A stretch of DNA of 64,000 nucleotides from Candidatus Uhrbacteria bacterium (GCA_016188475.1 JACPHT010000007.1:80467-144466), one strand, 5' to 3'; counted from the stretch's first letter, positions 13,674-63,588 are shown. The notes: generated from the sequence alone by a model not told the origin. Made by a program: numbers and translations.

Positions 13674-13753
13674 TTTGATTTCAAACATCCTAGTTTCCCA
13701 TTTTGATTTTTCAATTTACTTTCTCCTCATATCAGAAGTCGAATTATTATTAC

Positions 13754-15725: not shown

Positions 15726-15778
15726 TTTTATTGAATGATCACGGACACAAGGTCGGTGTCTAGAAGATTGATTATCAC

Positions 15779-39424: not shown

Positions 39425-39833
39425 ATAACTGGTTCAAAATTTTTGTCTGCAATGAAAACATTTTTTTCGCATCTTTTGACGTTTGATGATCATATTCAAA
39501 AAGATGCAACAGCCCGTGAACAATCAAAAACGAAATTTCATCTCGAGCTCCTCGCCCTGCTTCCTTTGCCTGTTTTTTTGCTTGCGAATATGAAATAAGA
39601 ATCTCTCCACTATTTTTTTCAAGAGAAAAAGATAGAACGTCTGTTACTGAATCTTTTCCCCTGTAAACACGATTCGCAAAACGGATTGTTTTATTGTTTA
39701 CAAACGCGATTGATGCTTCGTAGTTTTTCGCTTTAACAAATCTTCCAACAACACGCAAAATCTTTTCAAGTGCGACTTGCGGAAACCGTTCCCCACCTTT
39801 AAGCAAAGCTTGATTCAATTCAGCGCGAATCAT
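39411..39833 (-). CDS. ybeY: rRNA maturation endoribonuclease YbeY
   Basis: HGLLHLFEYDH zinc-binding motif. Confidence 0.85.
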   Translation of the reverse strand: MIRAELNQALLKGGERFPQVALEKILRVVGRFVKAKNYEASIAFVNNKTIRFANRVYRGKDSVTDVLSFSLEKNSGEILISYSQAKKQAKEAGRGARDEISFLIVHGLLHLFEYDHQTSKDAKKMFSLQTKILNQLYDKR

Positions 39834-40822: not shown

Positions 40823-40867
40823 AATATTCCCTTACCACTTTCACCCTTTCTCCCTTGTTTTTTATCC

Positions 40868-41482: not shown

Positions 41483-41521
41483 AGGTTTTTGGTGTTAGGT
41501 TTTGGGTTTTGAAAAAAATAA

Positions 41522-42319: not shown

Positions 42320-42354
42320 AGAAGAAAAGGAGAGGCATTTTCGTTTTTTAATGT

Positions 42355-42422
42355 CCCTTCGACTTCGGCAATTATTGCCTGAGCCTGTCGAAGGCCGTAA
42401 TTGCCTTCGCTCAGGGAATAAT
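42355..42422. mobile_element. MITE-like element family A
   Basis: cccttcgacttcggcaattattgcctgagcctgtcgaaggc...gccttcgctcagggaataat. Confidence 0.75.
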
Positions 42423-42429
42423 ATGCTTA

Positions 42430-51400: not shown

Positions 51401-52581
51401 ACTCCTGTTTCACCAAATTCTTCGTCAATCTCTGTATTGTCACAGTTTGCGGCTTTAACAACAGCTGAAATTTTTGTTGCTGTTGCTTTGTTGCCTGCGC
51501 AATCAAACGCAGAAGCCCAAAGAGGATAACTTTTGTTTGTAACGTATCCGATTGTGTCCCATTCAACATTCTCGTCTGTTGAAAAAATGTTTACCGTGTT
51601 GTTTCCAACAAGTTTTTGACTGGTTGACAGATCAAGTCCTGATGAATAAAGCGCTTCATCATCACTTACTGAGTAAAAATCTACACTTGAAACTCCTGTG
51701 TCGTCTTTTGTTTCGGCTTGCAAAATCTGAATCGTTCCAACAATAACGGATTGTCCATTCGTTGGAGTTTTCATGCTGATTGTCGGACCTTTTACATCAA
51801 CTCCATCGCCTGTTGTGAAAGAAAATTCATTCAGATTTCCAAACGTACTAAGTTCTGCGCCACTTGTTGACTTAAGAGCGGAATTGATCTTAAGCTCATA
51901 TTCCGTGTTTGCTGCAAAGCAATGCGATGTTGTATTTGGCGCCGGACAAAAAGCGGCTGGAGTGAATTTGACCACGCTTCCTTTTGTTGCAAAAGTTCCA
52001 TCAACCGCGTTTCCACCTTTTTGTTTGATTGTAATTCCTTCTGAAATTGTTGAAGCATTAACGTTCTTTGAAAAAACAAGTTGGAGCTGAAGATTTCGAA
52101 TAGCACTCGCGCATTCTGTATTAACTGAATTGAGTTTGAACGAGGAAAGTGTCCCGTTGTCTGGATACGAACCTCCGCCTCCGCCTGTCCCTGTTGTAAC
52201 ACCCACTCCTGTTGTTTCAATAAGTTTGCCAATAATAAATTGGACTATTCCAAATGATGCCAAAACAATTATCAGTCCAACAATCGCCTGGCTTAAAATC
52301 TTTTTTGCTGTTTCAAGCCGTTTTGTGTTGCCGGCAGAGGTCATGTATAAAAATCCAGCGTAAACAATCATGGCAACCGCAATTATTCCAACAAAACTTA
52401 TTGCTGTTCTGATCAATCGAGCGATGATGAGCTGAATCGAAGGACCTGTTGCAAATCCGGCGTTTTGCGCGAACTCTTTCAAATCAACTCCTTGAGCAAA
52501 AACAGGAACAGCAACAATGAGCCCAACGCTCACAAGCGCGAGAATAAAACCTGACAGAAATGATTTATATTGATGTTTCAT
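42430..52581 (-). CDS. giant (3,383 aa) surface protein: VirB2/TrbC-pilin-like two-helix N-terminus, Ig-like/IPT regions, 6+ tandem Myxococcus-type cysteine-rich repeats (CGDG..ECDDGN..GDGCS..C), C-terminal vWA domain
   Basis: Uninterrupted 10.15-kb ORF. Repeats CGDGIVDYNGDGKNEAEECDDKNTNSGDGCSSSCL x6. vWA with DLTGT...LTGSAIQ...LLADGEAN. N-terminal LIIARLIRTAISFVGIIAVAMIVYAGFLYMTS. Confidence 0.85.
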   Translation of the reverse strand: MKHQYKSFLSGFILALVSVGLIVAVPVFAQGVDLKEFAQNAGFATGPSIQLIIARLIRTAISFVGIIAVAMIVYAGFLYMTSAGNTKRLETAKKILSQAIVGLIIVLASFGIVQFIIGKLIETTGVGVTTGTGGGGGSYPDNGTLSSFKLNSVNTECASAIRNLQLQLVFSKNVNASTISEGITIKQKGGNAVDGTFATKGSVVKFTPAAFCPAPNTTSHCFAANTEYELKINSALKSTSGAELSTFGNLNEFSFTTGDGVDVKGPTISMKTPTNGQSVIVGTIQILQAETKDDTGVSSVDFYSVSDDEALYSSGLDLSTSQKLVGNNTVNIFSTDENVEWDTIGYVTNKSYPLWASAFDCAGNKATATKISAVVKAANCDNTEIDEEFGETGVNCGGDPTNVFYCGKCVADTCGQTAECSPGLVCENEVCVSKPRIDSVSPGDGAIGSLVTIKGLGFGAVGGNITFLGSKPEESKSVSAYSCNGKTKWSDKEIVVQLPVGAKDGPIEVATAGPDVKKDKTNDAFGPLSSDFDVNAVKRPGLCDVDPVKGESATGTTFSGLGLGAKQGSSVIYFKDFLSAGYSAWLDTQVKAVVPNMSSGNVSTQAFTGDYRCIDAVGKETGKLCAQDSDCGAGNSCATSWCSETLAYCSANKVCAEGDGKCVSVRVGSNKLAFAVLDSAKAETKPNISYVETGWKACSGGVNNGKVCAKDDTCGGGKCESAPNWGPAGQYVTIYGTDFGTSKGQVNFTSGLGKLALGDTQFPAQCGNQFWNNTSVIVKVPEEFQIANEFGDQIVFGAYKLSLKRQDGEVSNGVDFVIVDGAPGPAVCKLDPVAGPVETLVTAYGENLGTKDGTVTFFDKQSAGYIIWENTKVTDALVPAQAKTGPVFATTQAGYTSNSVNFAVGDCQNNFACPTNTFCCDDGSCKSNQADCSLKPKESHFAYRVSTGLIPEAPTIKVACDDKTISPSPWKNWEGSSSVCLNAVVTAAFTKQMDQTSLPDNIVVEKCNEEKSDGSCKAWQKLDGSLMTDEIAFTWTPSELLPQAAYIKVTVKGGQGGVRASDAVGGAFMEKDYVWDFRTAGQNELCEVGGVNVSPADFTATVDDQSVGYTSQLISKEHQCLTISCDGQTIDWSSNFPGATVQDPTVGTALCSSKVKATEETKGNPAKIKAEVTNAVNKPKDTGDLKIDFSDPKVDAFFPNCSTACVNAQPWARFNTDIDPSTVAASAVTLYECEDSICEANELKKTDLIQNVTYNKETKTLFVDYKAGSVMAANTWYRIVLNGSSIKSTSNVPLKDSGANYGTDFSWKFKTKNSDISCGIDSINVSPDLKTLNYVGQKQEYNATTYGAPDDCDASGQALQNSSYTWNAWTSKDTPDNYKAAQGGTAQDVAFMLQNGAIELATSLPEWCTSQCLNAGATIKHTQAVCGDGIVDYNGDGKNEAEECDDKNTNSGDGCSSSCLKEGSSLTCGNKIVDAGEQCDDGNTVSGDGCGSTCLNNGSSSVGATCGDGTVDFSPQTGGEDCDDGNTKNGDGCSSQCLFEGAIAKENVFSKCGNSKVESGEDCDDGNAVSGDGCSEKCLDEGASLEYGTPSFCSDSKIGKGEECDDGNNKSGDGCNAKCLNEGASAQYDPPSFCGDGKIQTSEECDVSAGQSLAIGGYAAAQINNNAPKEVDKTTGYAVSTITAEAENVKGDATLKVDCSCESDQACGDTTKLGCGSGSCCFVRPKKKPPYQPPSGNGPGNQGYCRNTAVSVQFDQKMDPKTFGAVDKNNNGKIDNGEISNIRLELFAKNGKYIYANPSLCPSNYQFVTSGEAPSGLFAKIWSVLKNGFWNLFGKDVSAAGNKCLAPVTFKTVDISGGQKIVLEYNDLLEKDSEYQLIIVGDKNTSDGTPFGVLSENGVGLCIGNTCEFGSTTNQFKIGSQVCLLDSVSVADNGKVNKQQYESASSGFFSKKDETHEFEAQALTYRDGLGVYEPINTTLSYSWTWDWGSSYATGKSENIVDLANGDIGKLEKSKFSSVGNNGLEHVIATAKINKDTFNVPTTSGKQTSGSLEVTALVCENPWPALNSTLGFPYIEKTDPTKPSNFGFYYCRDRGLDGTTDDLPSLADPVDVTSVATAGLLQELFFKVQGTPDAIGVRVFQNPNYLSPIAWFESQKFTGTYKELEIDGYQAIQSGNTAYITAANKNGNVIYPNIYVVSYNPNAGADAKEIFAQIFDHWKFNANTTEVSNVGLCKIGNSYVQNDEGDFINCAWDGECLETFENDECTITKNKPASAAECPLASAKNAFCDNDKSKLQNDMQRLTDITTTISALNKYGSQNKHCSVTKNQGCSTDSQCPGTESCVEGYPEVQQGTYVPAMSVSKWESWNAVLSNAVGSTLPKDPIDEFWQGCKSQGEGFDPLTCFNGLQGKFVCPKGSHVYGYQNKYGEKYKLFTQLEYGDSPWNFAIDQFDTDDVTVVAEYLSGLAAVPKGFVSNPLFCADTASWGISAVCGDGVVGQNETCEPGQVKAEYLSDGYVNVSCKDDCSNYQTVAEAQAAGSPKIDFACGNGVLEGSEICDDGAQNGTYGHCGSDCTFTKAFLCGDGYLAGGEQCDCGSIENFASLGNQSWAKINSCESSNGQYGDDPGKTCTYDCKQPGLSCGDKIVNGPEECDGGSQQWAGKLCTDNKTTCETDSDCPSGACGGGNQKQACGSSKVCVEAKDVGKQCGNNNQCESGKCNNSKCLGVDDIGTPCSNNAQCGSKKCSDFTYELTRTRVCKNDCSWPGFSSCQGGDQVCGNGKIEGTEECDDGNKSNNDSCTNGCKKNFCGDEYVYSGVEACDNGIDNVGPNDLNPCEASYDNTCNYCNWQCQYKTLSGSYCGDGIKNGNEFCDGNDQPYWCFNYDTGAEPVKAGNCSKSDALKLGPTGACSAGYTCQYLGVCNGGANNGKPCTLQPPNKTPAEYNASANKFVCGTDSQCVAPVCASDCSGSCPFTLKKTGILVQSELSGAQPLPSVDLYSYFNKEKLSPDNAVLLLPACSVGTKITANIDNSNVTEPNIDIVFVTDLTGTMKLGPDGKSASAPNRRIDIVTEAAKQAIDDLYDAYQGTDGKIRIGLVTYGYGVDYNHNVQDDVIALHPELETSLVPNNPGNKETLKNIIDTYKDNFGGWTLTGSAIQKAIKILDEQSAPENQKFVILLADGEANHALGDYSKYPPEKAIINDNDDKLKCNKMIGDNKKNYNKEDGIWVPYEGTEACIAEARYADGMIFDHIKSGDITFYSAVISDNTTQIAYMEHLSSLKCAGKEMADKNDCTEGNFAYQATTADGIKGMYNKIIESVLESKTTVTATKGTESSSETSITPVGQNVELPLPETFACQNKQTLMPIQTIFNGTGTMNFSNITFEYCPVP

Positions 52582-52590
52582 GCATTTTAT

Positions 52591-52663
52591 CCCTTCGACT
52601 CCGGCAAAATTATTGCCTGAGCCTGTCGAAGGCTTTAATTTTGCCTTCGCTCAGGGAATAAAA
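52591..52663. mobile_element. MITE-like element family A
   Basis: Same architecture as 42355-42422. Confidence 0.75.
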
Positions 52664-52665
52664 TT

Positions 52666-54471
52666 TCACTTTACATTCCCCGGCAATGTGCCCGGTTCAT
52701 ACAATGTCTTACACGCGACAGCAGACGGCGATCCATTACAACAATACGGTTTACTTGAATTTGTTCCGTCACACGCGCCGCCAACTTGCATTGAAGGATA
52801 CATACAAATTTGATACGCGCTTTTTAGACCGTTTGTTACAACAGGATAATAATCATATCCGCCTTCAGCATTGCTTATAAAAGCAGGATGTCCAATTAGC
52901 ACTTTGGTTGTTTTTGCGTCAACATTATCTTCCTTATTTGATGAAAACCACATTGAATAAAGTGGATCCGGCCAAACAGAAACATTTGAACTATTCACAG
53001 TCGAGCCTTTCAGAAGTGTGCTGAATGCAATTTCAAGCGGTGCGTTTTGATCAATCTCTTGACCTCCAATTTCAGGTTTTAACGAAACAATTTTTGGAAC
53101 AGTGTCATTGATCGCGTCTGTTGTGTTGAACGACCAAGAGTAATTATCATTCAAAGCATTGTTTGCGCAAACTGCCAAATCTTTTTCTGATCCACAAGCT
53201 TTCCCATCTCCATTTCCATCAAGCGAATTTCCTGACGCGTCAGTCAATCCATCATATGAAACTCCAATAAGTTGCGCTTGCGGGGGATTGGAATTATCTA
53301 GTGTCGCCGCCTTGCCAGTGACACTCAAATCAGCGGTTGCTGGCAAGCAATAAATCACATCACCGCAGGGATCTTTTGAACACGCGTCAGTGCTTGTAAA
53401 CCCAACTGTTTTGTATCCATTGCTAATTTCATATGTTCCCTGAACATTTCCGGCAACATCTTTTTGAGTAATCGCGATGTTTGTAAATAATGGATTTTTT
53501 TCATCAATATAAGAACCTGTTGAAGACACTGGGTCCATTGCTTCATTGAATGTCATTTCTACAGTCACATTACGCGGTTCTTCTGACGAATTATTTGGAA
53601 TCACAGAAACAACTTTTGGCGGAGTGAGATCGATTTCTGTTGAAACCTCAAACGTCCATCCATATCCGGAGGAATAAGCTCCAACAAAAGCATTTGAGCC
53701 GTTTGCTTTTTTGATTCCTGGTTGAAGCGCGACAGTATAATTCGTGTCCGATGTTGGATTGCCAAGAAGATCAACGGGATCAAAAACGTAAATTGTATTC
53801 TGTTCGTTTGTCACAACTTTTACAGCATCCGTCCCGAGTTTTTTGTCTTTTCCTTTTGCTGTTTCAAAAATATAGACATTCGTGTTGTTAAGTCCGCTCT
53901 CGCCAGAAATGATGGATTTTGGATCTACGGCTTCTTTGAATGTAACGAAAATTTTTGTATTGCGAGGAATTTCAACCGCGTTGCGGGGAGGATAATGGCT
54001 TTCGACAATTCCTGCGCCAAGCGCGCCGGCAAGCGGTTCTTTATATTTTTCAATTACAGCCTTTGAAACAATCTGACCGGAAGTCGCGCCCAAAATCGCA
54101 TTTATGACAAACAACGCGATCGCGTATGAAGAAAAAATAATTAAAACTCCGATTGTTGCCTGAGTGATGATTTTTTTCGCCTTTTCCGTTTTTCCTGCTT
54201 CGCCTTGCGAAGTCATGTACAAAAATCCGGCGTACAGAACAAGAAGAACAAAAATGATTCCTAAAATTCCAAGAAAAGCGCGAATTAAACGCGCGATTAT
54301 TAGGATAATGTTTGTTTGTGGCAAACCAGATGCTTCGGCAGAAGTTTGAAGAAAATCCGTTTGCGCAAAAACAGGATGAGCAAGTCCGAAGAAAACAAAA
54401 ACGCACAGCACGCCAAAGCCTGCCGCGTAAACGGCAAATGAACGCAAGTATGTCCGACTATTATCGGTCAT
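52666..54471 (-). CDS. 601-aa surface protein, paralog of the giant protein N-terminus (pilin-like two-helix module + Ig-like domains)
   Basis: N-terminal IILIIARLIRAFLGILGIIFVLLVLYAGFLYMTSQGEAGKTEKAKKI parallels the giant protein. Confidence 0.8.
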   Translation of the reverse strand: MTDNSRTYLRSFAVYAAGFGVLCVFVFFGLAHPVFAQTDFLQTSAEASGLPQTNIILIIARLIRAFLGILGIIFVLLVLYAGFLYMTSQGEAGKTEKAKKIITQATIGVLIIFSSYAIALFVINAILGATSGQIVSKAVIEKYKEPLAGALGAGIVESHYPPRNAVEIPRNTKIFVTFKEAVDPKSIISGESGLNNTNVYIFETAKGKDKKLGTDAVKVVTNEQNTIYVFDPVDLLGNPTSDTNYTVALQPGIKKANGSNAFVGAYSSGYGWTFEVSTEIDLTPPKVVSVIPNNSSEEPRNVTVEMTFNEAMDPVSSTGSYIDEKNPLFTNIAITQKDVAGNVQGTYEISNGYKTVGFTSTDACSKDPCGDVIYCLPATADLSVTGKAATLDNSNPPQAQLIGVSYDGLTDASGNSLDGNGDGKACGSEKDLAVCANNALNDNYSWSFNTTDAINDTVPKIVSLKPEIGGQEIDQNAPLEIAFSTLLKGSTVNSSNVSVWPDPLYSMWFSSNKEDNVDAKTTKVLIGHPAFISNAEGGYDYYPVVTNGLKSAYQICMYPSMQVGGACDGTNSSKPYCCNGSPSAVACKTLYEPGTLPGNVK

Positions 54472-54510: not shown

Positions 54511-55551
54511 TTACAAAGAGATAATAGGAAGAGTGTGGATAGACGTTAACTTTTGTTTCAATTTTTTTGCGTTTCCATGACCTAACAGTCCAAAATAAGA
54601 TTGAAACGTTTCTTTTGTTGGATGCGACTCAATTCTCTGTAACATCCGTCGTCTTGTTACTGTTCGTAATGTTCGATGATCCGTAAAATGAACCCAACCG
54701 AGAAAATCAACGCCGGAGGTAAAAGTCTTCAAAAAAATCTTGTTTGGATGAAGTGTTAAATGAAGATCAAACAGTAAAAAGGAACGTATTGCTGGAATCA
54801 AAGACTTGAGAGATGTTTTGTCATCAGAGAGAAAAACAAAATCATCAGCATAACGAACATAGTGTTTGATATGAAGTTTGTGTTTCACAAATTGATCAAA
54901 CTGATTCATATAGATATTTGAAAAAAGTTGTGATGTGAGATTGCCAAGCGGAAGTCCGATATTCCGCTTATTTTTTGTTTCAAAACTTCCGATGATTTTT
55001 TCAAGAAGCCATATGATGTTTTTGTCTGGGATATACTCTCCAAGGATACGAATCAAAATTCTGTGATCAATACTCCAAAAAAATTGTTTAATATCGCATT
55101 TCAAGACCCAACACGTTCGAGTGTGATTCTGACTAACTTGATAAGCAAAAGCCCGAAATCTGTCGACCGCTTTATGTACTCCCTTCTCGTTTCGACATGA
55201 AAATGAATCGCTTATGAATGTCTTATCGAAAAACGAATACAATATGCGATATAATGCCCGATGTAATGTGCGATCTCGTACTGACGCTTTGTGAATTAAA
55301 CGACGTTTTGGATCTGTGATGACAAATGATTCGTATTTTGAATGTCTGTATGTCTTGTTTTTCAAATCTCTATGTAAATCCAGAAGATTATCCATCAAAT
55401 ACAACTCGAACTCCTGTATGTCTTTTCTTGACCGCTTACCAACAACAAATTCACTCCAAGCACAAAGTAAATTCTCTATCGATATTATCTCTTCAAATGT
55501 ATGATCGAACAAAATTTTGGACACGCAACTAAGTGTACCCCCCCCCCCCAA
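54511..55551 (-). CDS. diversity-generating retroelement (DGR) reverse transcriptase
   Basis: RT motifs with the DGR-diagnostic LPLGNLTSQLFSNIYMN (I/LGxxxSQ) and VRYADDFVFL. N-terminal LFDHTFEEIISIENLLCAWSEFVVGKRSR. ORF-track start is TTG inside a C12 tract; the GTG at 55524 is an alternative. Confidence 0.85.
   Translation of the reverse strand: MGGGGTLSCVSKILFDHTFEEIISIENLLCAWSEFVVGKRSRKDIQEFELYLMDNLLDLHRDLKNKTYRHSKYESFVITDPKRRLIHKASVRDRTLHRALYRILYSFFDKTFISDSFSCRNEKGVHKAVDRFRAFAYQVSQNHTRTCWVLKCDIKQFFWSIDHRILIRILGEYIPDKNIIWLLEKIIGSFETKNKRNIGLPLGNLTSQLFSNIYMNQFDQFVKHKLHIKHYVRYADDFVFLSDDKTSLKSLIPAIRSFLLFDLHLTLHPNKIFLKTFTSGVDFLGWVHFTDHRTLRTVTRRRMLQRIESHPTKETFQSYFGLLGHGNAKKLKQKLTSIHTLPIISL
55538..55549. 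repeat. C12 homopolymer (G12 on the minus strand) at the 5' end of the RT ORF, in the RT/avd divergent region
   Basis: cccccccccccc read directly from the sequence. Confidence 0.9.
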
Positions 55552-55593
55552 CGATTTTTACCGGTTTTAAGTAAAGTCAAGGAGTCGTACCTT

Positions 55594-55920
55594 TTGTGGT
55601 ACAAATTTTATCAGGACTTACCCAAAGTACATCGTCATTCTCTCGGTCAGCGCATTGATACTTTATTTGTTGAAGTGATTGAAGCGATATCGGCCGCCAG
55701 TTTTCTCTCACCGGCGGAGAAACATCCGTATGTTCGTCTCGCGATCAAAAAAGCGGACACCTTGCGCGTACTTCTTTTGGTGCTTTGGGAAACGAAATCT
55801 CTTGATGACAAAAAATACATTGCTCTTTCCGTAAAGTTGGACGAAGCCGGAAAAATGCTTGGCGGTTGGAACGGCCAGCTCGCAAAACAAAACTCTCCAG
55901 CGAAAGCCGGAGAGAAATGA
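55594..55920 (+). CDS. candidate DGR accessory variability determinant (Avd-like four-helix-bundle protein), divergent from the RT
   Basis: TTG start 9 nt after a perfect SD aaggag. LPKVHRHSLGQRIDTLFVEVIEAI resembles the bAvd / four-helix-bundle family (FPKEE.YGLTSQIRRA.VSIPSNI). Basic, 109 aa. The opposite-strand orientation is unusual. Confidence 0.45.
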   Translation: MWYKFYQDLPKVHRHSLGQRIDTLFVEVIEAISAASFLSPAEKHPYVRLAIKKADTLRVLLLVLWETKSLDDKKYIALSVKLDEAGKMLGGWNGQLAKQNSPAKAGEK

Positions 55921-55926
55921 AGAGAG

Positions 55927-56059
55927 TTGCGACACGGCGAACGCGAACCCGTTGTCACGATTCCACCTGTTGTCAGGCCTGTCGTTGTACGCGTTGAGCC
56001 AGCGACCATCGTCGTTACGGTTCGCGTTCAGCAAGTTCGGATCGCCGTCGGATTGCGCG
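55927..56059 (-). repeat. DGR template repeat (TR)
   Basis: 133 bp matching VR (56399-56531). All 14 internal mismatches are at minus-strand adenines. The minus-strand frame is AAC-rich (LNANRNDDGRWLNAYNDRPDNRWNRDNGFAFAV). Confidence 0.85.
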
Positions 56060-56300
56060 AAACATCTTCCATATCACCACCCCTCGAATACTCTCAGGGT
56101 TGAATCGAATCCGGCATTGCAATGCCTTAATGTCTCGCGCCAAGTATCTTCTTTTTTATTGAAGTTTCTGCATGCACCACTCTATCCGAAACCATGGCCG
56201 CGGATACTCTCGATGCATGGATACTGGGGTCGGTAGCGGAAAGCCTTAACCGTCCGCATATTCACCTACTGCCACGAATATTATAGCCGATTTTATATTT

Positions 56301-56344
56301 TATGAAAAAATTTAGCCCTGCTCCGACGGATCGGAACAGGGCTA
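56301..56344 (-). terminator. terminator of the DGR target gene (tagccctg-17 nt loop-cagggcta + T-run on minus strand)
   Basis: 8-bp stem with an internally palindromic loop. Lies about 60 bp downstream of the stop codon. Confidence 0.6.
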
Positions 56345-56359
56345 AGGGCTAAGTTCAAA

Positions 56360-56373
56360 GGGACAGAAGTCCC
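56360..56373 (-). other. small GC hairpin (gggac-agaa-gtccc) ~25 bp 3' of VR, candidate DGR homing-enhancing hairpin
   Basis: 5-bp GC stem with a 4-nt loop just past the invariant VR 3' end. Analogous in position to the hairpin/cruciform described for the Bordetella phage DGR. Confidence 0.3.
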
Positions 56374-56398
56374 GAGTATCTTAGTGTTGAGAACTGAC

Positions 56399-56531
56399 TT
56401 GCTACACGGCGAACGCGAACCCGTGGGCACGATTCCACCTGTCGGCAGGCCTGCCGTCGCACGCGCTGAGCCAGCGACCATCGCCGTAACGGTCCGCGCT
56501 CAGCAAGTCCGGAGCGCCGTCGGAGTCGTTG
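56399..56531 (-). repeat. DGR variable repeat (VR) at the 3' end of the target gene
   Basis: Encodes ...LSADRYGDGRWLSACDGRPADRWNRAHGFAFAV*. The 3' 25 nt (cacggcgaacgcgaaccc) has no adenine on the coding strand and is identical to TR (IMH-like). Confidence 0.85.
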
Positions 56532-57016
56532 ATGGGTTCGTGCATTGCGACGATCCACCACAGACCCATGGCTTCGATCTCCTTGTCCGTGAACTTCTCA
56601 CGGATGAGGCAGGCCAGTTCGGCGTTCGGCTTCGAGAGCTTGCGCTTGTCGGCCTCGGCGCGAATCTTCTTCGTGATCCGGTCGTTGCCCTCGAAGAGCA
56701 TGCCCTTGAGAACGGCGACTTCGGTCGTCACGCCGCTCGTCGGCTTGAAGTCCGGCGAACGGAGCACTTGCTTGGCGTAGTCGCCCACGCGGAAGCCTTT
56801 GCTCTCGAGTCGGGTGATCCAGTCCTCGCCGGTCGTGCCATCGCTGGTGACCGAGAAGTAGAGGACGCCGTCTTCCTCGCGCCACGAACGGATCGGTTCG
56901 GAAACCGAGAGTTCGTCGCGGAGAAAACGGAGCGCCATGTAATGGCCACCGAGCTTCTTCACGATGGCATTCAGTTGGCCGGCAGTGAGGTCGGAGGATG
57001 CGAATTCTTTGCTCAT
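56402..57016 (-). CDS. DGR target protein (204 aa) with C-type-lectin/FGE-like variable C-terminus; no signal peptide detected
   Basis: Strong SD aaggagac. C-terminal GLWW...DGRW...RWNR..GFAFAV matches the CLec-fold VR pattern. GC about 62%. Confidence 0.8.
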   Translation of the reverse strand: MSKEFASSDLTAGQLNAIVKKLGGHYMALRFLRDELSVSEPIRSWREEDGVLYFSVTSDGTTGEDWITRLESKGFRVGDYAKQVLRSPDFKPTSGVTTEVAVLKGMLFEGNDRITKKIRAEADKRKLSKPNAELACLIREKFTDKEIEAMGLWWIVAMHEPINDSDGAPDLLSADRYGDGRWLSACDGRPADRWNRAHGFAFAV

Positions 57017-57255: not shown

Positions 57256-58014
57256 TTACATCACTTTAATAACAACAGTTGAAACACCATACAGCAAAAC
57301 AACTGCGATTGATCCGATAAACCCTGTCATGATTTTTTGCCAAGCTTTTACATGCGACTCATCACGCATAGAAGAAATCATATAACTAAACCCACCGTGT
57401 AAAATCATATTAACAGCTAAAATTCCAAACAAAAGTAGCAAGACTCTAAAAATGCGAACTCCGGTTTCTAAAAATGAATATGCTTGAAGTGAAACTGGAA
57501 CAATTTCAATTGCGGCAAATGCTGGAAAAGCAATTCCGACTCCGACGATCATCAAAACAAACACAGCAAGCAAAGATTCAACGATTTGTTTTACTCGTGT
57601 TCCATCAGCGCGACCCTGCACGACTTTCATAGCCATTCCCATTGCCTTCCCCATGTCTTGTTTGCTTGTTACACCTGATTCTTCAACTACTTTTTTCACG
57701 ATTGATGTGAGTTCATCATCAGAAATTTGTTTTGGCAAATATGCTTCAAGAACAGCAATCTCTATTCGAGCTTGAGAAGCTAAATCCTCTCGCTTTGCGC
57801 TTTCATACGAATCAAGTCCGTCGCGCAACTGTTTCACTTGCGATCGAATCACACCCAAAATTTCTTCATCTGATAATTCATGTTGAACATCAATTTGTTT
57901 GTTTTTCATTGCAGAACGCAATAAACGCAACGTTGAAAGCGTTGCGTTGTTTTTGCTTTTCATTGCGTCTTTCATCGCGTTTGTGATTTGGTCAGAAAGA
58001 GACATAGAACCCAT
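57256..58014 (-). CDS. yqeY: GatB/YqeY-domain protein fused to a C-terminal two-helix VirB2/TrbC-pilin-like membrane module
   Basis: N-terminal 150 aa is YqeY-like (downstream of rpsU as in Firmicutes). C-terminal IFRVLLLLFGILAVNMILHGGFSYMISS parallels the N-terminal modules of the 42430 and 52666 proteins. Confidence 0.65.
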   Translation of the reverse strand: MGSMSLSDQITNAMKDAMKSKNNATLSTLRLLRSAMKNKQIDVQHELSDEEILGVIRSQVKQLRDGLDSYESAKREDLASQARIEIAVLEAYLPKQISDDELTSIVKKVVEESGVTSKQDMGKAMGMAMKVVQGRADGTRVKQIVESLLAVFVLMIVGVGIAFPAFAAIEIVPVSLQAYSFLETGVRIFRVLLLLFGILAVNMILHGGFSYMISSMRDESHVKAWQKIMTGFIGSIAVVLLYGVSTVVIKVM

Positions 58015-58149: not shown

Positions 58150-58395
58150 TTATCTCCCCCTTGATGGCTGACGAACTTCTTCCTTGAGTTGTCCAATGCG
58201 TGCCAGATATTCGCGTTTTTCTCGAATCTCAATTCGTCGTAAAGCGCTTTCGCGTTGTTTATTCTTGTTTGGTTTTGAAGCACGATAGCGAAGTTTGCGC
58301 ACTTCAAGCTGTTTGCCGCTCTGTTGCAAACGGCGGCTAAATCTGCGCAATAGACTTTCAAAGCTTTCACCTTTTTTTCGTTTCACGTCGACCAT
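58150..58395 (-). CDS. rpsU: ribosomal protein S21
   Basis: VKRKKGESFESLLRRFSRRLQQSG...RKLRYRASKPN. Start set at MVDV. Confidence 0.8.
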   Translation of the reverse strand: MVDVKRKKGESFESLLRRFSRRLQQSGKQLEVRKLRYRASKPNKNKQRESALRRIEIREKREYLARIGQLKEEVRQPSRGR

Positions 58396-58497
58396 ATAGT
58401 TAGAAGCTAGAAGCAAGAAGAAAGAAGTTAGAGAAGCTGAAGATTTAGAATTATGTTACGGCAAGATTATGCAGGATTTGGCTCATTTTTGTCAAGT

Positions 58498-59913
58498 CTA
58501 GCTGTCCGCGACTGGAGAATATCCTTCGGTTTTCACCCCTGGATCTTTTTGAAGTTTTCGTTCAACAACAGAAACGATCTTCTTCACATCAATTGTTTCT
58601 TGAGCGCCGGATTCCATGTCGCGAATGATGATCGTCCCATCAAGCACTTCTTTTTGACCAAGAATAAGTGTGAACTGAACCCCAAGTTTGTTTGCGACTT
58701 CAAGTTGGGCTTTGAGAGCGTTTTTCCCAACCGCTTCTGAAACTATAATTCCGGATTTTCGAAATTCTTCAAACAATTTTAGACCAACGCGCCGCGCGGC
58801 ATCACCGAGTTGCGCAAAAAATACATGAGCTTTCTTGTACTGTGGAGGATCAATATTTTTATCAGAAAGCGCTCGAACAATTCGATCAATTCCAAGAGCA
58901 AAACCGCACGCAGGTGTTGGTCGCCCGCCAATTAGCTCAACAAGCCCGTCATATCGTCCACCTCCACCAAGGGCGTTTTGTGCTTTCTCGCCCTCATCAT
59001 CAGCAAGCGTAAACTCAAACACTGTGTGCGTGTAGTAATCCAAACCGCGAACCAAGTGCGAATTCAACACATACGGCATTTCAACTTCATCCAAAAATTC
59101 CAAAACTTTCATGAAATGTTCTTTTGATTTTTCATCAAGCCAATCAAGAATCTGCGGGGCATCTTTAAGAAGTTCGATCGTCTCCGGCTCTTTACTATCA
59201 AGCAGGCGCAAAGGATTTTTTTGAAGACGACGTTTGTCGTCTTCTGGAAGTCGGCTTCTGAATTGTCGAAAATACGATACAAGTTCGGCAAGATAAGCCT
59301 GACGACATTCAGGCGTTCCTATTGAGTTTATTTGAACCGAAACATCAAGCCCAAGAGTTTCAAAAATTTTCTTTCCAATCAAAATTAGCTGTGCGTCAAT
59401 GATTGGCTCACTGCTTCCAAAGACTTCAAAACCTACCTGATAAAACTGACGAAATCGTCCAGCTTGCGGACGATCGTGTCGAAACATCGGCCCTTCGTAC
59501 CAAAGTTTCACTGGCTGTGGACGCTCTATCATTCCATGTTCGATGTAAGCGCGAGCGGCCGAAGCAGTCGCCTCTGGACGAAGCGCGACAGAACGATTCG
59601 ATGGATCTGTAAAAACGTACATTTCTTTTTCAACAACATCTGTTCCTTTTCCAAGGGTGCGTAAAAACAAATCCGATCGTTCCAAAATCGGAAGATCAAT
59701 TCGATCAAAAGTGTAAGATTCCGCAAGTGAACGCATTGCGTCGCGAACAAAATTCCATCTTCCCTGCTCTTCCGGCATTATGTCGCGAAATCCGCGTAAT
59801 AATTCCGGAGCGCCTTTTGACGATTTTTTTGATTCATCTTCGTCGCCCTCCTCTGTTTCAGGTTTCTTGACCGGCGTTTGAACTGGTTTTGGTGTATTTT
59901 TTCTGAATGGCAT
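58498..59913 (-). CDS. hisS: histidyl-tRNA synthetase (class IIa) with ~40-aa basic N-terminal extension
   Basis: RGFRDIMPEE (motif 1 region), RPEATASAARAY, GRFRQFYQVGFEVFG (motif 2), GGGRYDGL (motif 3). Confidence 0.85.
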   Translation of the reverse strand: MPFRKNTPKPVQTPVKKPETEEGDEDESKKSSKGAPELLRGFRDIMPEEQGRWNFVRDAMRSLAESYTFDRIDLPILERSDLFLRTLGKGTDVVEKEMYVFTDPSNRSVALRPEATASAARAYIEHGMIERPQPVKLWYEGPMFRHDRPQAGRFRQFYQVGFEVFGSSEPIIDAQLILIGKKIFETLGLDVSVQINSIGTPECRQAYLAELVSYFRQFRSRLPEDDKRRLQKNPLRLLDSKEPETIELLKDAPQILDWLDEKSKEHFMKVLEFLDEVEMPYVLNSHLVRGLDYYTHTVFEFTLADDEGEKAQNALGGGGRYDGLVELIGGRPTPACGFALGIDRIVRALSDKNIDPPQYKKAHVFFAQLGDAARRVGLKLFEEFRKSGIIVSEAVGKNALKAQLEVANKLGVQFTLILGQKEVLDGTIIIRDMESGAQETIDVKKIVSVVERKLQKDPGVKTEGYSPVADS

Positions 59914-60030: not shown

Positions 60031-60630
60031 TTACAAATTATATTCCGGTGGTTCGAACGTTCCGAGTCGTGAGAGTGGAAGACCGCGAATCCACACTCGA
60101 CCGATAATTCCAGCTCGCTTCACGGTTCCAAACGCGCGCGAGTCTAAACTTTCATCACGATTATCTCCAAGTAAGAAGTATTCTTTTTCTCCTAATGTTA
60201 CGCGTGTTTTTCCGTCAGTACGATCTTCAACAATATATGATTCATCTAACACTTCACCGTTTGGATGTTCTGAAGTGTAAAGAATAATTTTTCCATTTGA
60301 AATTTCTATTGTTTCACCAGGCAAACCAATTACGCGTTTTATAAAAAACTGGCTCGGATCGCGCGGATAACGAAACACAATGATCTCTCCGCGGTCTGGT
60401 TCACGAAAACGATATGACAGCTCATCTATAATAAGGTATTCATGATCGTAAAAATTTGGTTCCATTGAAGCACCTTTGACGTAAAACGGCTGAATCAAAA
60501 AATAACGTATTGGAATTATGATAGCTGCTGAAATCGCAACGATCTGCACGACTTCCAAAATAAAAAAAACGATTGAACCTGTTACCAAGCCAAAACGTTC
60601 TTGAAGATGTTGTTCAAAAGCTGGAGCCAT
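60031..60630 (-). CDS. lepB: signal peptidase I
   Basis: GASMEPNF (Ser box), IVFRYP, FLLGDNRDESLDSRAFG. Confidence 0.85.
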   Translation of the reverse strand: MAPAFEQHLQERFGLVTGSIVFFILEVVQIVAISAAIIIPIRYFLIQPFYVKGASMEPNFYDHEYLIIDELSYRFREPDRGEIIVFRYPRDPSQFFIKRVIGLPGETIEISNGKIILYTSEHPNGEVLDESYIVEDRTDGKTRVTLGEKEYFLLGDNRDESLDSRAFGTVKRAGIIGRVWIRGLPLSRLGTFEPPEYNL

Positions 60631-61718: not shown

Positions 61719-61795
61719 GGACGTTTAGCTCAGCTGGTTAGAGCGTCGCATTCACATTGCGAAGGTCGGAGGTTCAAGTCCTCCAACGTCCACCA
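61719..61795 (+). tRNA. tRNA-Val (CAC), CCA encoded
   Basis: ggacgtt-ta-gctcagctggttagagc-g-tcgca-ttCACat-tgcga-aggtc-ggaggttcaagtcctcc-aacgtcc-a-cca has a canonical cloverleaf. Confidence 0.85.
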
Positions 61796-61829
61796 TGTTA
61801 TTTTGAAATAGTCGTTCGGTCGTGCTGGC

Positions 61830-61883
61830 AGCGTCGCATTCACATTGCGAAGGTCGGAGGTTCAAGTCCTCCAACGTCCACCA
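61830..61883 (+). pseudogene. partial direct repeat of the tRNA-Val 3' two-thirds (anticodon arm to CCA)
   Basis: agcgtcgcattcacattgcgaaggtcggaggttcaagtcctccaacgtccacca is identical to tRNA positions 26-76. The 5' part is replaced, so it cannot fold as a tRNA. Confidence 0.75.
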
Positions 61884-61959
61884 CGCAAAAACATCGACAC
61901 GTTCGGTGTTTTTACGTTCCTTGCCTTTTTGTCATCAGACCGATAAAATAGACACGGAA

Positions 61960-63588
61960 ATGACTATGGACAAACCGAAAATAGATTTGTTGAAACAGAA
62001 GTATCAACTCAACGCTCACAAGAAGAACAACCTTCTTGTTTTTGGTCGCGCAATGATTATCGTGCTTGCGATCGGTGCTGTAATTGGGGTTTCGTTTTCA
62101 TATCGCATCAGTTCGACGACAACAAGTTCAAACGATTTTCCAAAAATTTCACTTCTTTCAACGATTCGAAATTTTGTTGATGGAGATAAATTAAAAGGAG
62201 AAGAAAACGATCGAGTAAATTTGCTTCTTATGGGAATTGGCGGCGAAGGTCATGAAGGTCCTCAACTCACGGACACGATCATCTTTGCAAGTTTCCAGCC
62301 ATCAACCGGAAAAATTGGGTTGATGTCACTTCCGCGCGACATGACAGTTCCGATTCCCGGATATGGATATCGAAAAGTTAATCACGCAAACGCACTTGGG
62401 GAAGTAGACAAAACAGGATCGGGACCGAAACTTGCATCTCAAGTCATCGGACAAGTCTTAGATGAAGATATCCAATACTATTTTCGAGTTGACTTTAATG
62501 GCTTCGCACAGCTTATAGATCAAGTCGGAGGAATTGATGTTTATGTTGAACGCGGATTCACAGATGCGCAGTATCCGGTGTTAGGAAAAGAATATGATGA
62601 GTGTGGAGGACAAAACCAAGAAGCTGGAGAGGCTAAAGAGGCTGGAGCGGAAGGCTTCAGCCTTCCAGAAGTTGAAGAAGCTAAAGAATCTGGAGAAGTT
62701 TTATTGCCTTCGACAAGCTCAGGCAATATCGCTCCAAATTATTCATGTCGCTTTGAATCTTTAACTTTTCAAGAAGGCTGGACTCACATGAACGGAGACA
62801 CGGCTCTCAAGTTTGTTCGCTCGCGACACGGAACAAACGGTGAGGGATCTGATTTTTCGCGTTCAGCTCGTCAGCAAAAAGTTCTGCTAGCGATCAAGGA
62901 TAAAGTTTTTTCTGCTTCAACATTTCTGAATCCTGTTCGTATGAATCGAATCTTTGACACTCTCAAGCAAAACATTGCTACAAATTTAGATGTGTCAGAA
63001 ATTTTGCGTCTTGCTCGCGCGATTCAAAATCTTGATTCAAATCAACTTACACACAAAGTAATTGATGCATCTGACAATTCACCTCTTTACGCAACCACGC
63101 TAAATGGATCGTTTGTTCTTCTTCCAAAAAATGATGACTGGCGACCACTTCAAAAAATGGCTGAATATATTTTTACGTCAGATTCTGGTTACGAACGTTT
63201 CGCTTCAACGCCGAATGAAAAACCAAAGTTTGTAAAAGTTGAAATTCAAAATGGGACAAACATAACAGGCCTCGCGTTTAGAGCTTCACAAATGCTCGAT
63301 GGTCAAGGTTTTGATGTAATAAAAGTTGGAAACGCAATGTCAAGAAGTTATGAGCACACAGTAATCTATGACTTGACAAACGGAGCGCGAGCGAGTGAAC
63401 TCAAGGCCTTGAGCGATTTTCTGAAAGCAGATGTGACACTTTCCGCAACTGGTTGGATGGTAAGCGGAGAAGTTGTGCCAAAGGAAATTTCAGTTACAAG
63501 TGAAGAATTTGAAAAGCTCGCTACTGAAGAAAACATTGATTTCCTGATCATTCTTGGTGAAAATTCGTCGAGCTTGGTAATGCAATAA
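61960..63588 (+). CDS. LytR-CpsA-Psr (LCP) family cell-envelope phosphotransferase with an in-frame MITE-derived insert
   Basis: TM anchor; LCP core NLLLMGIGGEG...LMSLPRDM...HANALGE...FRVDFNGFAQLIDQVGGIDV; C-terminal LytR_C-like domain. The insert LLPSTSSGNIAP at 62700-62735 is encoded by a family-A TIR. Confidence 0.8.
   Translation: MTMDKPKIDLLKQKYQLNAHKKNNLLVFGRAMIIVLAIGAVIGVSFSYRISSTTTSSNDFPKISLLSTIRNFVDGDKLKGEENDRVNLLLMGIGGEGHEGPQLTDTIIFASFQPSTGKIGLMSLPRDMTVPIPGYGYRKVNHANALGEVDKTGSGPKLASQVIGQVLDEDIQYYFRVDFNGFAQLIDQVGGIDVYVERGFTDAQYPVLGKEYDECGGQNQEAGEAKEAGAEGFSLPEVEEAKESGEVLLPSTSSGNIAPNYSCRFESLTFQEGWTHMNGDTALKFVRSRHGTNGEGSDFSRSARQQKVLLAIKDKVFSASTFLNPVRMNRIFDTLKQNIATNLDVSEILRLARAIQNLDSNQLTHKVIDASDNSPLYATTLNGSFVLLPKNDDWRPLQKMAEYIFTSDSGYERFASTPNEKPKFVKVEIQNGTNITGLAFRASQMLDGQGFDVIKVGNAMSRSYEHTVIYDLTNGARASELKALSDFLKADVTLSATGWMVSGEVVPKEISVTSEEFEKLATEENIDFLIILGENSSSLVMQ

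What the first reader, a model, noticed from the sequence alone, without database searches (positions are those of the whole stretch)
57256..58014. Same pilin-like two-helix module in three proteins, including a YqeY fusion
The motif (I/L)xR(L/I)..(L/F)G(I/L)..(V/I)..(Y/H)(A/G)GF.YM(T/I)S within a hydrophobic hairpin is N-terminal in the giant protein and its 601-aa paralog. The same motif is C-terminal in a protein whose first 150 aa are a GatB/YqeY domain, encoded in the conserved rpsU-yqeY position. Fusing a translation-associated cytoplasmic domain to a pilin-like membrane module has, to my knowledge, not been described. It hints at a shared membrane-insertion or assembly pathway for this module, or at tethering of YqeY to the membrane.
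Basis: partly seen in the sequence, partly recalled or inferred. Interest (0 to 1): 0.55.

Follow-up and report, generated by a model that had tools for sequence, protein, structure and literature searches.

The report
YqeY fused to a complete prepilin
In one clade of uncultivated Uhrbacteria, the widespread but poorly understood translation-linked protein YqeY is fused to a complete VirB2-like pilin precursor, signal peptide included, which should place YqeY at the inner face of the cell membrane beside two pilin-anchored surface proteins encoded downstream.

Summary
ORF 57256..58014(-) has a full-length YqeY domain (Pfam E 6e-46) followed by about 105 hydrophobic residues. A profile built only from that tail in 38 orthologs finds just two other ORFs in the window: the 601-aa protein (E 5e-11) and the 3383-aa protein (E 5e-8). 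The next best hit has E 1.3. Across 5.8 billion proteins, all 120 listed hits of this profile are PF18895 T4SS_pilin proteins.

The tail is more than the two-helix module. It is an entire prepilin: positive n-region, 16-residue h-region, AxA site, acidic linker and helical hairpin. The AxA site has Ala at -1 in 118 of 118 homologs and A/V/T/S at -3 in 116.

The fusion arose once. Sister Uhrbacteria keep a plain 146-150 aa YqeY in the same lepB-hisS-rpsU-yqeY-[640 aa]-[giant] gene order.

Most likely the protein inserts with YqeY in the cytoplasm. Signal peptidase I then probably cleaves it into a tail-anchored YqeY and an 85-aa pilin-like subunit. The cleavage is inferred, not shown.

I found no description of this architecture, and Pfam's threshold misses the pilin part. 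It is a new variant of known kinds, of moderate interest.

The parts
57568..57993 (-). YqeY domain (residues 8-149 of the 252-aa ORF; probable true start at Met4, coordinate 58005)
   Evidence: Pfam PF09424 E 5.7e-46, profile positions 2-143 of 143. The AF2 model is helical with pLDDT about 73-91 by 10-residue block, lowest near the junction with TM1. Orthologs start at MSL....
57523..57600 (-). Internal signal-peptide-like segment: n-region (R140, K142 in the last YqeY helix) plus a 16-residue h-region (residues 149-164)
   Evidence: The n-region carries 2.5 K+R on average; the h-region is about 16 aa with almost no charge. AF2 helix 138-161 runs without a break from YqeY into the hydrophobic stretch. 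Plain YqeY proteins end exactly at the 'LL' where the h-region begins.
57514..57522 (-). AxA motif (A165-F166-A167), a putative signal peptidase I site with cleavage after Ala167
   Evidence: Position -1 is Ala in 118/118. Position -3 is A82, V30, T3, S1. Position +1 is never Pro. Flanking positions are variable. AF2 pLDDT is below 50 for residues 164-173. The motif aligns with the 'PVFAQ' sites of the 601-aa and giant heads.
57457..57513 (-). Acidic, variable linker (residues 168-186), predicted to lie outside the cell
   Evidence: K+R 0.05 and D+E 2.1 per sequence; lowest conservation of the tail.
57259..57456 (-). Pilin hairpin: helix A (187-213, R..R cap, G197, GGF.YM), charged and His-rich loop (214-226), helix B (227-252, G231)
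   Evidence: AF2 helices 174-213 and 220-251, pLDDT 82-91. PF18895 is the top Pfam family for the isolated tails (11 of 38, best E 2e-4). NCBIfam NF045849 matches 20 of 38 (best E 3e-6). A profile of the tails retrieves PF18895 proteins only.
54097..54471 (-). Head of the 601-aa protein: signal peptide (residues 1-36, VFA|Q) plus pilin hairpin (about 54-125)
   Evidence: PF18895 24.3 bits; tail-only HMM E 4.6e-11; BLASTP against the YqeY tail E 7e-7.
52222..52581 (-). Head of the 3383-aa protein: signal peptide (residues 1-29, VFA|Q) plus pilin hairpin (about 49-119)
   Evidence: PF18895 32.6 bits on the first 300 aa; tail-only HMM E 4.9e-8; BLASTP against the YqeY tail E 7e-8 and against the 601-aa head E 4e-25.
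58150..58416 (-). rpsU (bS21), immediately upstream of yqeY
   Evidence: Pfam Ribosomal_S21, weak (E 0.0024). An S21 homolog directly precedes yqeY in 18 of 19 fused loci (L017 has only 15 bases of upstream sequence) and in all 17 plain Uhrbacteria-type loci, plus Moranbacteria locus L080.
60031..60630 (-). lepB, signal peptidase I (candidate processing enzyme; its position is not specific to the fusion)
   Evidence: Pfam Peptidase_S26 E 6e-42. The lepB-hisS-rpsU-yqeY order is also present in unfused relatives.

Best explanation
The gene encodes a chimera of two known proteins. The first part is a complete, conserved YqeY domain. Its natural C-terminus runs directly into the second part, a complete VirB2-like (PF18895) pilin precursor made of signal peptide, short acidic linker and two-helix hairpin.

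YqeY has no signal sequence of its own, so it stays in the cytoplasm. The internal signal peptide inserts N-in/C-out, as in ordinary prepilins. The hairpin then takes its usual orientation, with both ends outside and the charged loop inside. This gives a three-pass membrane protein with YqeY held flush against the inner face of the membrane.

The AxA site after the first hydrophobic segment is kept as strictly as the core of the domain. Signal peptidase I therefore most likely cuts after Ala167. That would leave a tail-anchored YqeY (residues 1-167) and an 85-residue mature pilin-like subunit. This subunit is of the same family as the membrane-anchoring heads of the 601-aa and 3383-aa surface proteins encoded downstream.

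Shown: the homology of both parts, the signal-peptide anatomy, the single origin of the fusion and its retention. Inferred: the topology, the cleavage and any co-assembly with the neighbours.
For: - Both parts identified: YqeY E 5.7e-46. Isolated tails of orthologs hit PF18895 and NF045849 as top families.
- The tail-only profile finds PF18895 proteins among 5.8 billion sequences (top E 1.4e-10). Several of these 125-135 aa stand-alone pilins cover 95-98% of the tail, signal peptide included.
- An exhaustive search of 1.84 billion representatives gives 2236 hits. All 10 that I scanned are PF18895 at E 1e-8 to 1e-13.
- hhalign against position-chosen heads: probability 97%, E 8.7e-11, aligned from the AxA region onward.
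- Signal-peptide anatomy in 118 orthologs: n-region K+R 2.5; h-region 16 aa; -1 Ala 118/118; -3 small 116/118; +1 never Pro; early mature region K+R 0.05 and D+E 2.1.
- AF2: a continuous helix from YqeY into TM1, a disordered AxA region and a confident hairpin.
- Retention: 277 database proteins, about 250 aa each, down to 43% identity.
- Single origin: 19 species-level genomes have the fusion and all fall in one clade of the YqeY-domain tree. Plain-YqeY sisters keep the same gene order.
- Plain YqeY proteins end at the 'LL' where TM1 starts.
Against: - No experiment or proteomic datum shows insertion, topology or cleavage.
- No dedicated predictor (SignalP, DeepTMHMM) was available.
- The invariant Ala167 could serve helix packing rather than cleavage.
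- A signal peptide placed after a folded 148-residue domain is not a standard signal peptidase substrate.
- The query's own tail is below Pfam's gathering score (10.5-15.9 against 26.6 bits). Family assignment rests on profile-level evidence.
- No VirB4, VirB6 or other T4SS gene lies in the 64-kb window, so a pilus function is unsupported.
- Foldseek against the PDB returned only generic helical hairpins.
Confidence: 0.55

Rival explanations
1. The protein is a permanent three-helix anchor and is not cleaved. It stays in one piece, and the pilin module serves only to tether YqeY. The module may also dock it laterally onto the homologous pilin heads of the two neighbouring surface proteins. The AxA motif would then be conserved for structural reasons.
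For: The same anatomy as the best explanation. TM1 plus the c-region gives about 20 uncharged residues, enough to span a membrane. The helix is continuous with YqeY. The yqeY-640 aa-giant synteny is conserved.
Against: The strict -3/-1 pattern (118/118 Ala at -1) sits in an otherwise variable segment. An acidic, Lys/Arg-free stretch follows it. Both are the signature of a processed signal peptide, not of a plain anchor. The homologous sites in the stand-alone pilins and in the two heads are N-terminal signal peptides.
Confidence: 0.3
2. The fusion is an expression accident with no functional coupling. A stop codon was lost between yqeY and a small pilin gene. Signal peptidase, and then signal-peptide peptidase, separate the parts, so YqeY returns to the cytosol. 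On this view the fusion says nothing about what YqeY does.
For: The junction lies exactly at the natural YqeY C-terminus with no linker. The cleavage site is conserved. Both halves belong to families that normally work alone.
Against: The fusion has been kept through divergence to 43% identity, with no re-split among the 19 fused species-level genomes. No stand-alone ortholog of the tail appears among 1.84 billion representatives; the short top hits that I read are fragments of fused genes. yqeY lies next to pilin-headed genes even where unfused.
Confidence: 0.2
3. The tail is a generic pair of transmembrane helices whose resemblance to the pilin module comes from composition alone.
For: The single-sequence Pfam score is below threshold (E 0.67 in the full protein). 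The PDB sequence search finds only an unrelated ErbB3 helix at E 0.3.
Against: - Composition-adjusted BLASTP gives E 7e-7 and 7e-8.
- The tail-only HMM separates the two heads from all other window ORFs by 8-11 orders of magnitude.
- hhalign gives 97% probability.
- Every listed database hit of the tail profile carries PF18895.
- Gly197, Gly231 and the GGF.YM...D...A pattern are shared with stand-alone pilins.
Confidence: 0.02
4. The long ORF is an assembly or frameshift artefact that joins two separate genes.
For: None found.
Against: The same continuous ORF occurs in 277 proteins from many independent assemblies and sources (NCBI, JGI, ENA, Logan) and in 19 species-representative genomes.
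Confidence: 0.01

Closest known systems
VirB2/TrbC-like pilins of Patescibacteria (Pfam PF18895 T4SS_pilin; PMC12102498, PMC10633639)
   Same: Signal peptide with an AxA site, a short linker, two hydrophobic helices joined by a charged loop, and the shared GGF.YM/Gly pattern. The family is abundant in the same superphylum, often as gene arrays.
   Different: Here the 'leader' in front of the hydrophobic core is a folded 148-residue cytoplasmic domain. The gene sits in a ribosomal-protein operon, not in a pilin array or near virB4. No T4SS genes lie in the window. The orthologs (30-80% identical) are better conserved than array paralogs, which the paper reports at about 25%.
Stand-alone YqeY (PF09424) of the rpsU-yqeY operon (Bacillota, Francisella; PMC13374519)
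   Same: A full-length domain with the family's conserved motifs, in the same position directly after rpsU.
   Different: All other YqeY proteins examined are soluble and 146-150 aa long. This one continues into three membrane helices.
Deinococcus radiodurans GlnRS with a C-terminal YqeY domain (PMC1865053)
   Same: A precedent for YqeY as a module fused to another protein. There it is reported to strengthen tRNA binding.
   Different: The partner there is a cytoplasmic aminoacyl-tRNA synthetase and YqeY is C-terminal. Here the partner is a membrane prepilin and YqeY is N-terminal.
OLE ribonucleoprotein complex of Bacillota (PMC12054373)
   Same: The paper reports preliminary evidence that YqeY binds OLE RNA, alongside bS21. 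From my own knowledge, not checked here, the complex is held at the membrane by the membrane protein OapA. This is the only other hint that YqeY acts at the membrane.
   Different: That association is non-covalent, depends on RNA and occurs in a different phylum. The authors describe the YqeY evidence as preliminary and unpublished.
Pilin-headed and poly-pilin proteins of the same radiation
   Same: The PF18895 hairpin is used as a membrane module that carries passengers: giant C-terminal ectodomains, a PG_binding_1 domain, or 3-8 tandem hairpins.
   Different: In the examples I examined the passenger lies after the signal peptide and is therefore extracellular. Only in the YqeY fusion is the passenger in front of the signal peptide and so cytoplasmic.

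Membership tests
YqeY / GatB_Yqey (PF09424) | Full-length match to the family profile above the curated cut-off | tested here: met
   156.6 bits against a cut-off of 27; residues 8-149 cover profile positions 2-143 of 143.
YqeY / GatB_Yqey (PF09424) | Position directly downstream of rpsU (typical, not strictly defining) | tested here: met
   An S21 ORF lies 136-145 bp upstream. The same arrangement is found in 18 of 19 fused loci and all 17 plain Uhrbacteria-type loci, plus Moranbacteria locus L080.
PF18895 T4SS_pilin (sequence family of VirB2-like pilins) | Significant match to the family profile | tested here: met
   The query alone is below the gathering score (10.5 bits in the full protein, 15.9 for the tail; cut-off 26.6). 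At family level the match is significant:
- PF18895 is the top family for 11 of 38 tails (best E 2e-4), and NF045849 for 20 of 38 (best E 3e-6).
- The tail profile retrieves only PF18895 proteins (top E 1.4e-10 in 5.8e9 sequences).
- hhalign against local heads gives 97% probability, E 8.7e-11.
PF18895 T4SS_pilin (sequence family of VirB2-like pilins) | Two hydrophobic helices joined by a short charged loop | tested here: met
   AF2 helices 174-213 and 220-251 with pLDDT 82-91. The loop carries 2.3 K+R and 1.3 His on average.
PF18895 T4SS_pilin (sequence family of VirB2-like pilins) | Preceded by a Sec-type signal peptide with a small-x-small site | tested here: met
   The n-h-c anatomy is present and AxA is conserved. 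Stand-alone pilins align over 95-98% of the tail, including this part. Here the signal peptide is internal.
Functional T4SS pilus subunit (VirB2-type major pilin) | Encoded with, or in a genome with, T4SS machinery (VirB4, VirB6, VirB3) | tested here: not met
   No such gene was found among the ORFs of the 64-kb window that were scanned against Pfam. The rest of the genome was not available. I therefore do not file this as a working pilus subunit, only as a member of the sequence family.
Functional T4SS pilus subunit (VirB2-type major pilin) | Polymerises into an extracellular filament | not testable with these tools
   No multimer modelling or experiment was possible. Foldseek against the PDB gave no significant match (best E 1.1).
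Sec-type cleavable signal peptide (signal peptidase I substrate) | Positive n-region, hydrophobic h-region, small residues at -3/-1, no Pro at +1 | tested here: met
   K+R 2.5; 16-aa h-region; -1 Ala 118/118; -3 A/V/T/S 116/118; +1 A/S/E/Q/V.
Sec-type cleavable signal peptide (signal peptidase I substrate) | Located at the N-terminus of the precursor | tested here: not met
   It starts at residue 136-149, after a folded domain. It may work like a signal peptide, but it is formally an internal signal-anchor.
Sec-type cleavable signal peptide (signal peptidase I substrate) | Actually cleaved | not testable with these tools
   This needs N-terminal proteomics or expression of a tagged protein.

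The most novel reading that the evidence does not exclude
YqeY acts at the membrane, and the fusion hard-wires a partnership that already exists in unfused relatives. In this reading the tRNA- and RNA-binding, bS21-associated YqeY domain is held at the cytoplasmic face of an assembly built from VirB2-like hairpins. There it couples translation to the insertion or secretion of the pilin-anchored 640-aa and giant surface proteins, which are encoded directly downstream in both fused and unfused genomes. This would give a first functional handle on YqeY. It would also parallel its reported presence in the OLE ribonucleoprotein complex, which to my knowledge is membrane-bound.
Probability: 0.12. 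Interest if true: 0.8.

Novelty: new variant of a known kind. Interest (0 to 1): 0.45.

Why it matters
YqeY is conserved across many bacteria and co-regulated with ribosomal protein bS21. A 2026 paper still calls it poorly understood (PMC13374519). A fusion that arose once and was then kept across a whole clade is classic 'Rosetta stone' evidence. It suggests that YqeY can work, and perhaps normally works, at the cytoplasmic face of the membrane, next to VirB2-like membrane modules.

The fusion also shows an unusual use of a prepilin. A folded cytoplasmic domain sits in front of a signal peptide that still looks cleavable. This can be tested directly with tagged constructs.

Finally, it adds to the picture that Patescibacteria use the T4SS-pilin hairpin as a general membrane-anchoring cassette for giant adhesins, tandem poly-pilins and now a cytoplasmic protein, rather than only as a pilus subunit.

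The limits are clear. The organisms are uncultivated, nothing is shown experimentally, and a domain fusion in one lineage is a clue rather than a mechanism.

Tried and rejected
- Foldseek of the tail model against the PDB: best E 1.1, only generic helical hairpins (chemoreceptors, designed bundles, ATP synthase subunit c). Uninformative.
- Sequence search of the PDB with the tail profile: only an ErbB3 transmembrane helix at E 0.3, which is noise.
- I looked for an ancestral rpsU-yqeY-small pilin arrangement. The best stand-alone pilin hit (P0124, Magasanikbacteria) sits in an array of about eight PF18895 genes next to rpsO, not next to yqeY. In unfused Uhrbacteria, yqeY is followed directly by the 640-aa gene. 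The origin of the tail, whether a captured small pilin or a duplicated head of the downstream gene, stays unresolved.
- The short top hits of the exhaustive search that I read (P0241, P0243, P0246, P0248, P0252) looked like stand-alone orthologs. They begin inside YqeY ('MGxAM...') and are fragments of fused genes.
- The HMM I built from stand-alone pilins (pil.hmm) was selected through the tail profile, so it is circular for the tail. I did not use it as evidence for the YqeY protein.
Only the relaxed form does.
- lepB lies two genes upstream, but this is not specific to the fusion. The same order occurs in unfused genomes.
- 'A Novel Pilus System in CPR Bacteria' (PMC13278184) concerns Ig-fold donor-strand pilins. 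The giant-gene preprint (10.1101/2023.11.21.568195) concerns Omnitrophota. Neither bears on this module.
- Exact look-up of the window's own protein (P0001) in the contig index found no record.

Full report
**What is in the window**

The ORF at 57256..58014 on the minus strand encodes 252 residues. Orthologs begin at the fourth residue (MSL...), so the true start is probably at 58005. Residues 8-149 match Pfam YqeY (PF09424) over the whole profile at E 5.7e-46.

The gene order on the minus strand is as follows:
- signal peptidase I (lepB, 60031..60630)
- histidyl-tRNA synthetase (58498..59913)
- a weak ribosomal protein S21 match (rpsU, 58150..58416)
- the YqeY gene
- a diversity-generating retroelement
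- a 601-aa ORF (52666..54471)
- a 3383-aa ORF (42430..52581)
- three TSP3-repeat ORFs, then ftsA, ftsZ, nrdR, an HtrA-like protease and pyruvate kinase

The 601-aa and 3383-aa proteins each start with a signal peptide ending in VFA|Q. A Pfam T4SS_pilin (PF18895) module follows, and then Ig-like domains. The giant protein also has TIG, DUF4215 and a VWA domain near its end.

**Is the shared module real?**

Yes.
- Pairwise BLASTP with composition adjustment aligns the last 107 residues of the YqeY protein collinearly with the first 125 residues of the 601-aa protein (27% identity, E 7e-7). It aligns them with the head of the giant protein at 30% identity, E 7e-8. The two heads are 41% identical to each other (E 4e-25).
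- I cut the tails (from residue 146) out of 38 orthologs and built a profile from them alone. Against all 806 six-frame ORFs of the window it hits the YqeY ORF, the 601-aa ORF (E 4.6e-11) and the giant ORF (E 4.9e-8). Nothing else scores better than E 1.3.
- hhalign compared the tail alignment with an alignment of heads chosen purely by gene position: the first long ORF downstream of yqeY in 52 related loci plus the two window heads. It gives 97% probability, E 8.7e-11, over 93 columns.
With flexible spacers it matches exactly these three ORFs, and the core [YH][AG]GF.YM[TI]S is unique to them.

**What family is it?**

The query's own tail scores below Pfam's gathering threshold for PF18895 (10.5 bits within the full protein, 15.9 bits alone, cut-off 26.6). 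At family level the assignment is clear:
- PF18895 is the most frequent Pfam match among the 38 isolated tails (11 members, best E 2e-4).
- The NCBIfam pilin-like conjugal transfer model NF045849 matches 20 of them (best E 3e-6).
- Searching 5.8 billion proteins with the tail profile gave 223 hits at E <= 0.01 (top 1.4e-10). All 120 listed are proteins of 112-181 aa carrying precomputed PF18895, and some also carry TrbC/VirB2 PF04956. Those that carry an organism name are mostly from Magasanikbacteria.
- Several of these hits cover 95-98% of the tail.
- An exhaustive HMMER search of 1.84 billion cluster representatives gave 2236 hits at E <= 0.001. All ten that I scanned are PF18895 at E 1e-8 to 1e-13.

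This family is the VirB2-like pilin of Patescibacteria. [quoted passage not shown]

**The tail is a whole prepilin, not just a hairpin**

In 118 aligned orthologs the tail has five parts:
- a positively charged stretch in the last YqeY helix (K+R 2.5)
- a 16-residue uncharged h-region
- a small-x-small motif: position -1 is Ala in 118 of 118; position -3 is A, V, T or S in 116; position +1 is never Pro
- a variable linker of about 19 residues with essentially no Lys or Arg (0.05) and about two acidic residues
- the hairpin, with invariant Arg190, Gly197 and Gly231 and nearly invariant Gly207, Arg217 and Asp218

The residues flanking the AxA motif are among the least conserved of the protein, so the invariance of the motif stands out.

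AlphaFold2 with 47 orthologs (mean pLDDT 80.7) gives one continuous helix, 138-161, from the YqeY domain into the hydrophobic segment. Residues 164-173 around the AxA motif have low confidence. The hairpin, 174-213 and 220-251, is confident. A model of the tail alone agrees.

Unfused YqeY proteins from sister genomes end at '...RLL' plus zero to two residues. That is exactly where the hydrophobic segment begins in the fused proteins, so there is no linker.

**How widespread is it, and how did it arise?**

The full-length protein has 277 relatives. The 120 listed are mostly 236-255 aa (range 192-321), and most cover 95-100% of the query, down to 43% identity. Where named, they are Candidatus Uhrbacteria or Patescibacteria.

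A scan of one genome per species found the fused form in 19 genomes. Some of these are deposited under evidently wrong names such as 'uncultured Gammaproteobacteria' or 'Lentisphaerae'. Seventeen other Uhrbacteria-type loci have a plain yqeY ORF of 146-214 codons measured stop to stop, whose YqeY domain ends at the natural C-terminus; one of them (L022) is cut by its contig end. A Moranbacteria genome and the roughly 45 other genomes returned, mostly Bacillota, also have plain YqeY.

In nearly all fused loci and in most plain Uhrbacteria-type loci where enough downstream sequence is held, yqeY is followed by a roughly 640-aa pilin-headed ORF and then a giant pilin-headed ORF. It is preceded by rpsU and, where the locus reaches far enough, hisS and lepB. 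The other, mostly Bacillota, loci have no pilin neighbours.

In a neighbour-joining tree of the YqeY domain, all fused sequences form one clade. This tree uses simple distances and has no support values. The single 'plain' sequence inside that clade (L022) is cut off by the end of its contig.

So the fusion arose once, inside a lineage where yqeY already lay next to pilin-headed genes, and it has been kept since.

The exhaustive search found no stand-alone ortholog of the tail. The short top hits that I read (P0241, P0243, P0246, P0248, P0252) begin inside YqeY and are fragments of fused genes. Whether the tail came from a captured small pilin gene or from a duplicated head of the downstream gene remains open.

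**How it most likely works**

YqeY has no signal sequence, so it stays in the cytoplasm. The internal signal peptide has the same N-in/C-out polarity as in a normal prepilin, so the hairpin ends up in its usual orientation. The result is a three-pass protein with YqeY flush against the membrane. I consider this topology likely (about 0.8) but it is inferred.

The textbook -3/-1 pattern is invariant through deep divergence, and an acidic early mature region follows it. On that basis I think cleavage by signal peptidase I after Ala167 is more likely than not (about 0.5-0.6). Cleavage would give a tail-anchored YqeY and an 85-residue pilin-like protein. The main rival is an uncleaved anchor.

A third possibility is that the fusion is functionally neutral and YqeY is eventually released. 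That fits less well with its long retention and with the conserved neighbourhood.

I do not claim a pilus. No T4SS machinery gene was found among the window ORFs scanned against Pfam, and fold searches were uninformative.

**Comparison with what is known**

YqeY is still described as poorly characterised. Three things are reported about it:
- It resembles the tRNA-binding tail of GatB.
- It occurs as an appended domain of Deinococcus GlnRS (PMC1865053).
- It is co-regulated with bS21 (PMC13374519).

There is also preliminary evidence that YqeY and bS21 bind OLE RNA (PMC12054373). From my own knowledge, the OLE complex is membrane-associated. That is the only other hint of YqeY at a membrane.

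Within Patescibacteria the PF18895 hairpin turns out to be a versatile cassette:
- it heads giant surface proteins (P0315 at 3260 aa, P0326 at 2453 aa, and the two in this window)
- it follows a peptidoglycan-binding domain (P0354)
- it occurs as 3-8 tandem hairpins behind one signal peptide (for example P0244 and P0270; P0359 shows 8 matched stretches but was not read)

In the examples I examined the passenger is extracellular. The YqeY fusion is the only one I saw with a cytoplasmic passenger placed in front of the signal peptide.

I found no paper describing it. Because the pilin part falls below Pfam's threshold, the precomputed Pfam annotation of the listed orthologs shows only the YqeY/GatB domain.

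**Verdict**

The fused partner is a complete prepilin with a probably functional cleavage site. The association with the pilin-headed neighbours is older than the fusion.

It is a new domain architecture made of two known families, confined to one clade of uncultivated bacteria. Interest is moderate. It is a useful clue to YqeY biology and an odd use of a signal peptide, but nothing is demonstrated experimentally.

Noticed in passing
window 54511-57016: A diversity-generating retroelement lies between the YqeY gene and the 601-aa gene. Its parts are a reverse transcriptase (54511..55551, -), a bAvd-like ORF (55501..55920, +), a template repeat (55919-56052) and a variable repeat (56391-56524) at the 3' end of a 204-aa target ORF (56402..57016, -). 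Fourteen of the 18 mismatches are at template adenines. None of the related loci checked (19 fused and 17 plain Uhrbacteria-type, plus three others) has a homolog of this RT or target downstream of yqeY, so it looks like an insertion in this lineage. A relative with 91% identity (L085) has an ORF starting at the matching distance after yqeY.
   Followed up: partly
database proteins P0244, P0264, P0265, P0270; P0261, P0359 (only): 'Poly-pilin' proteins have one N-terminal signal peptide followed by 3-8 tandem PF18895 hairpins in a single chain of 283-820 aa. I have not seen these described. Two helices per unit keep the topology consistent.
   Followed up: partly
window 42430-54471 and loci L005-L059: A conserved pair of genes, about 640 aa and more than 3000 aa, each headed by a signal peptide plus a VirB2-like hairpin and followed by Ig-like domains. 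The pair lies directly downstream of yqeY across Uhrbacteria-type genomes. The hairpin seems to act as the membrane anchor of giant surface proteins.
   Followed up: partly
database protein P0354: Signal peptide, then a PG_binding_1 domain, then a PF18895 hairpin. This is another passenger on the pilin module, in this case extracellular.
   Followed up: no
window about 6000-16000: A G+C-rich block (52-56% against about 41% elsewhere) encodes at least four paralogous proteins with Cu-binding_MopE repeats (PF11617). Long antisense ORFs overlap them.
   Followed up: no
window 39830-42445: Three consecutive ORFs with bacterial TSP3 (calcium-binding) repeats lie directly downstream of the giant gene and upstream of ftsA and ftsZ.
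   Followed up: no
loci L008, L009, L012, L018, L020 and others: MAG records titled 'uncultured Gammaproteobacteria' or 'Lentisphaerae bacterium' carry the Uhrbacteria-type lepB-hisS-rpsU-yqeY-pilin locus. These are probably mislabelled or contaminated bins.
   Followed up: no
window 61818-61880 (+): An Rfam tRNA match at 35 bits sits next to tRNA-Val (61719-61795). ARAGORN does not call it, and it overlaps the GTG start of the LytR-family ORF (61822..63588). It may be a degenerate tRNA, or the ORF start may be miscalled.
   Followed up: no
window 22286-22676 (+): A tmRNA gene with tag peptide ANNVIAKIKNALRVPTFAPVLA.
   Followed up: no
The word-indexed search with the tail profile did not list the fused YqeY proteins themselves, because of its candidate cap. 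The exhaustive search did list them. Absence from the first tool is therefore not evidence of absence.
   Followed up: yes
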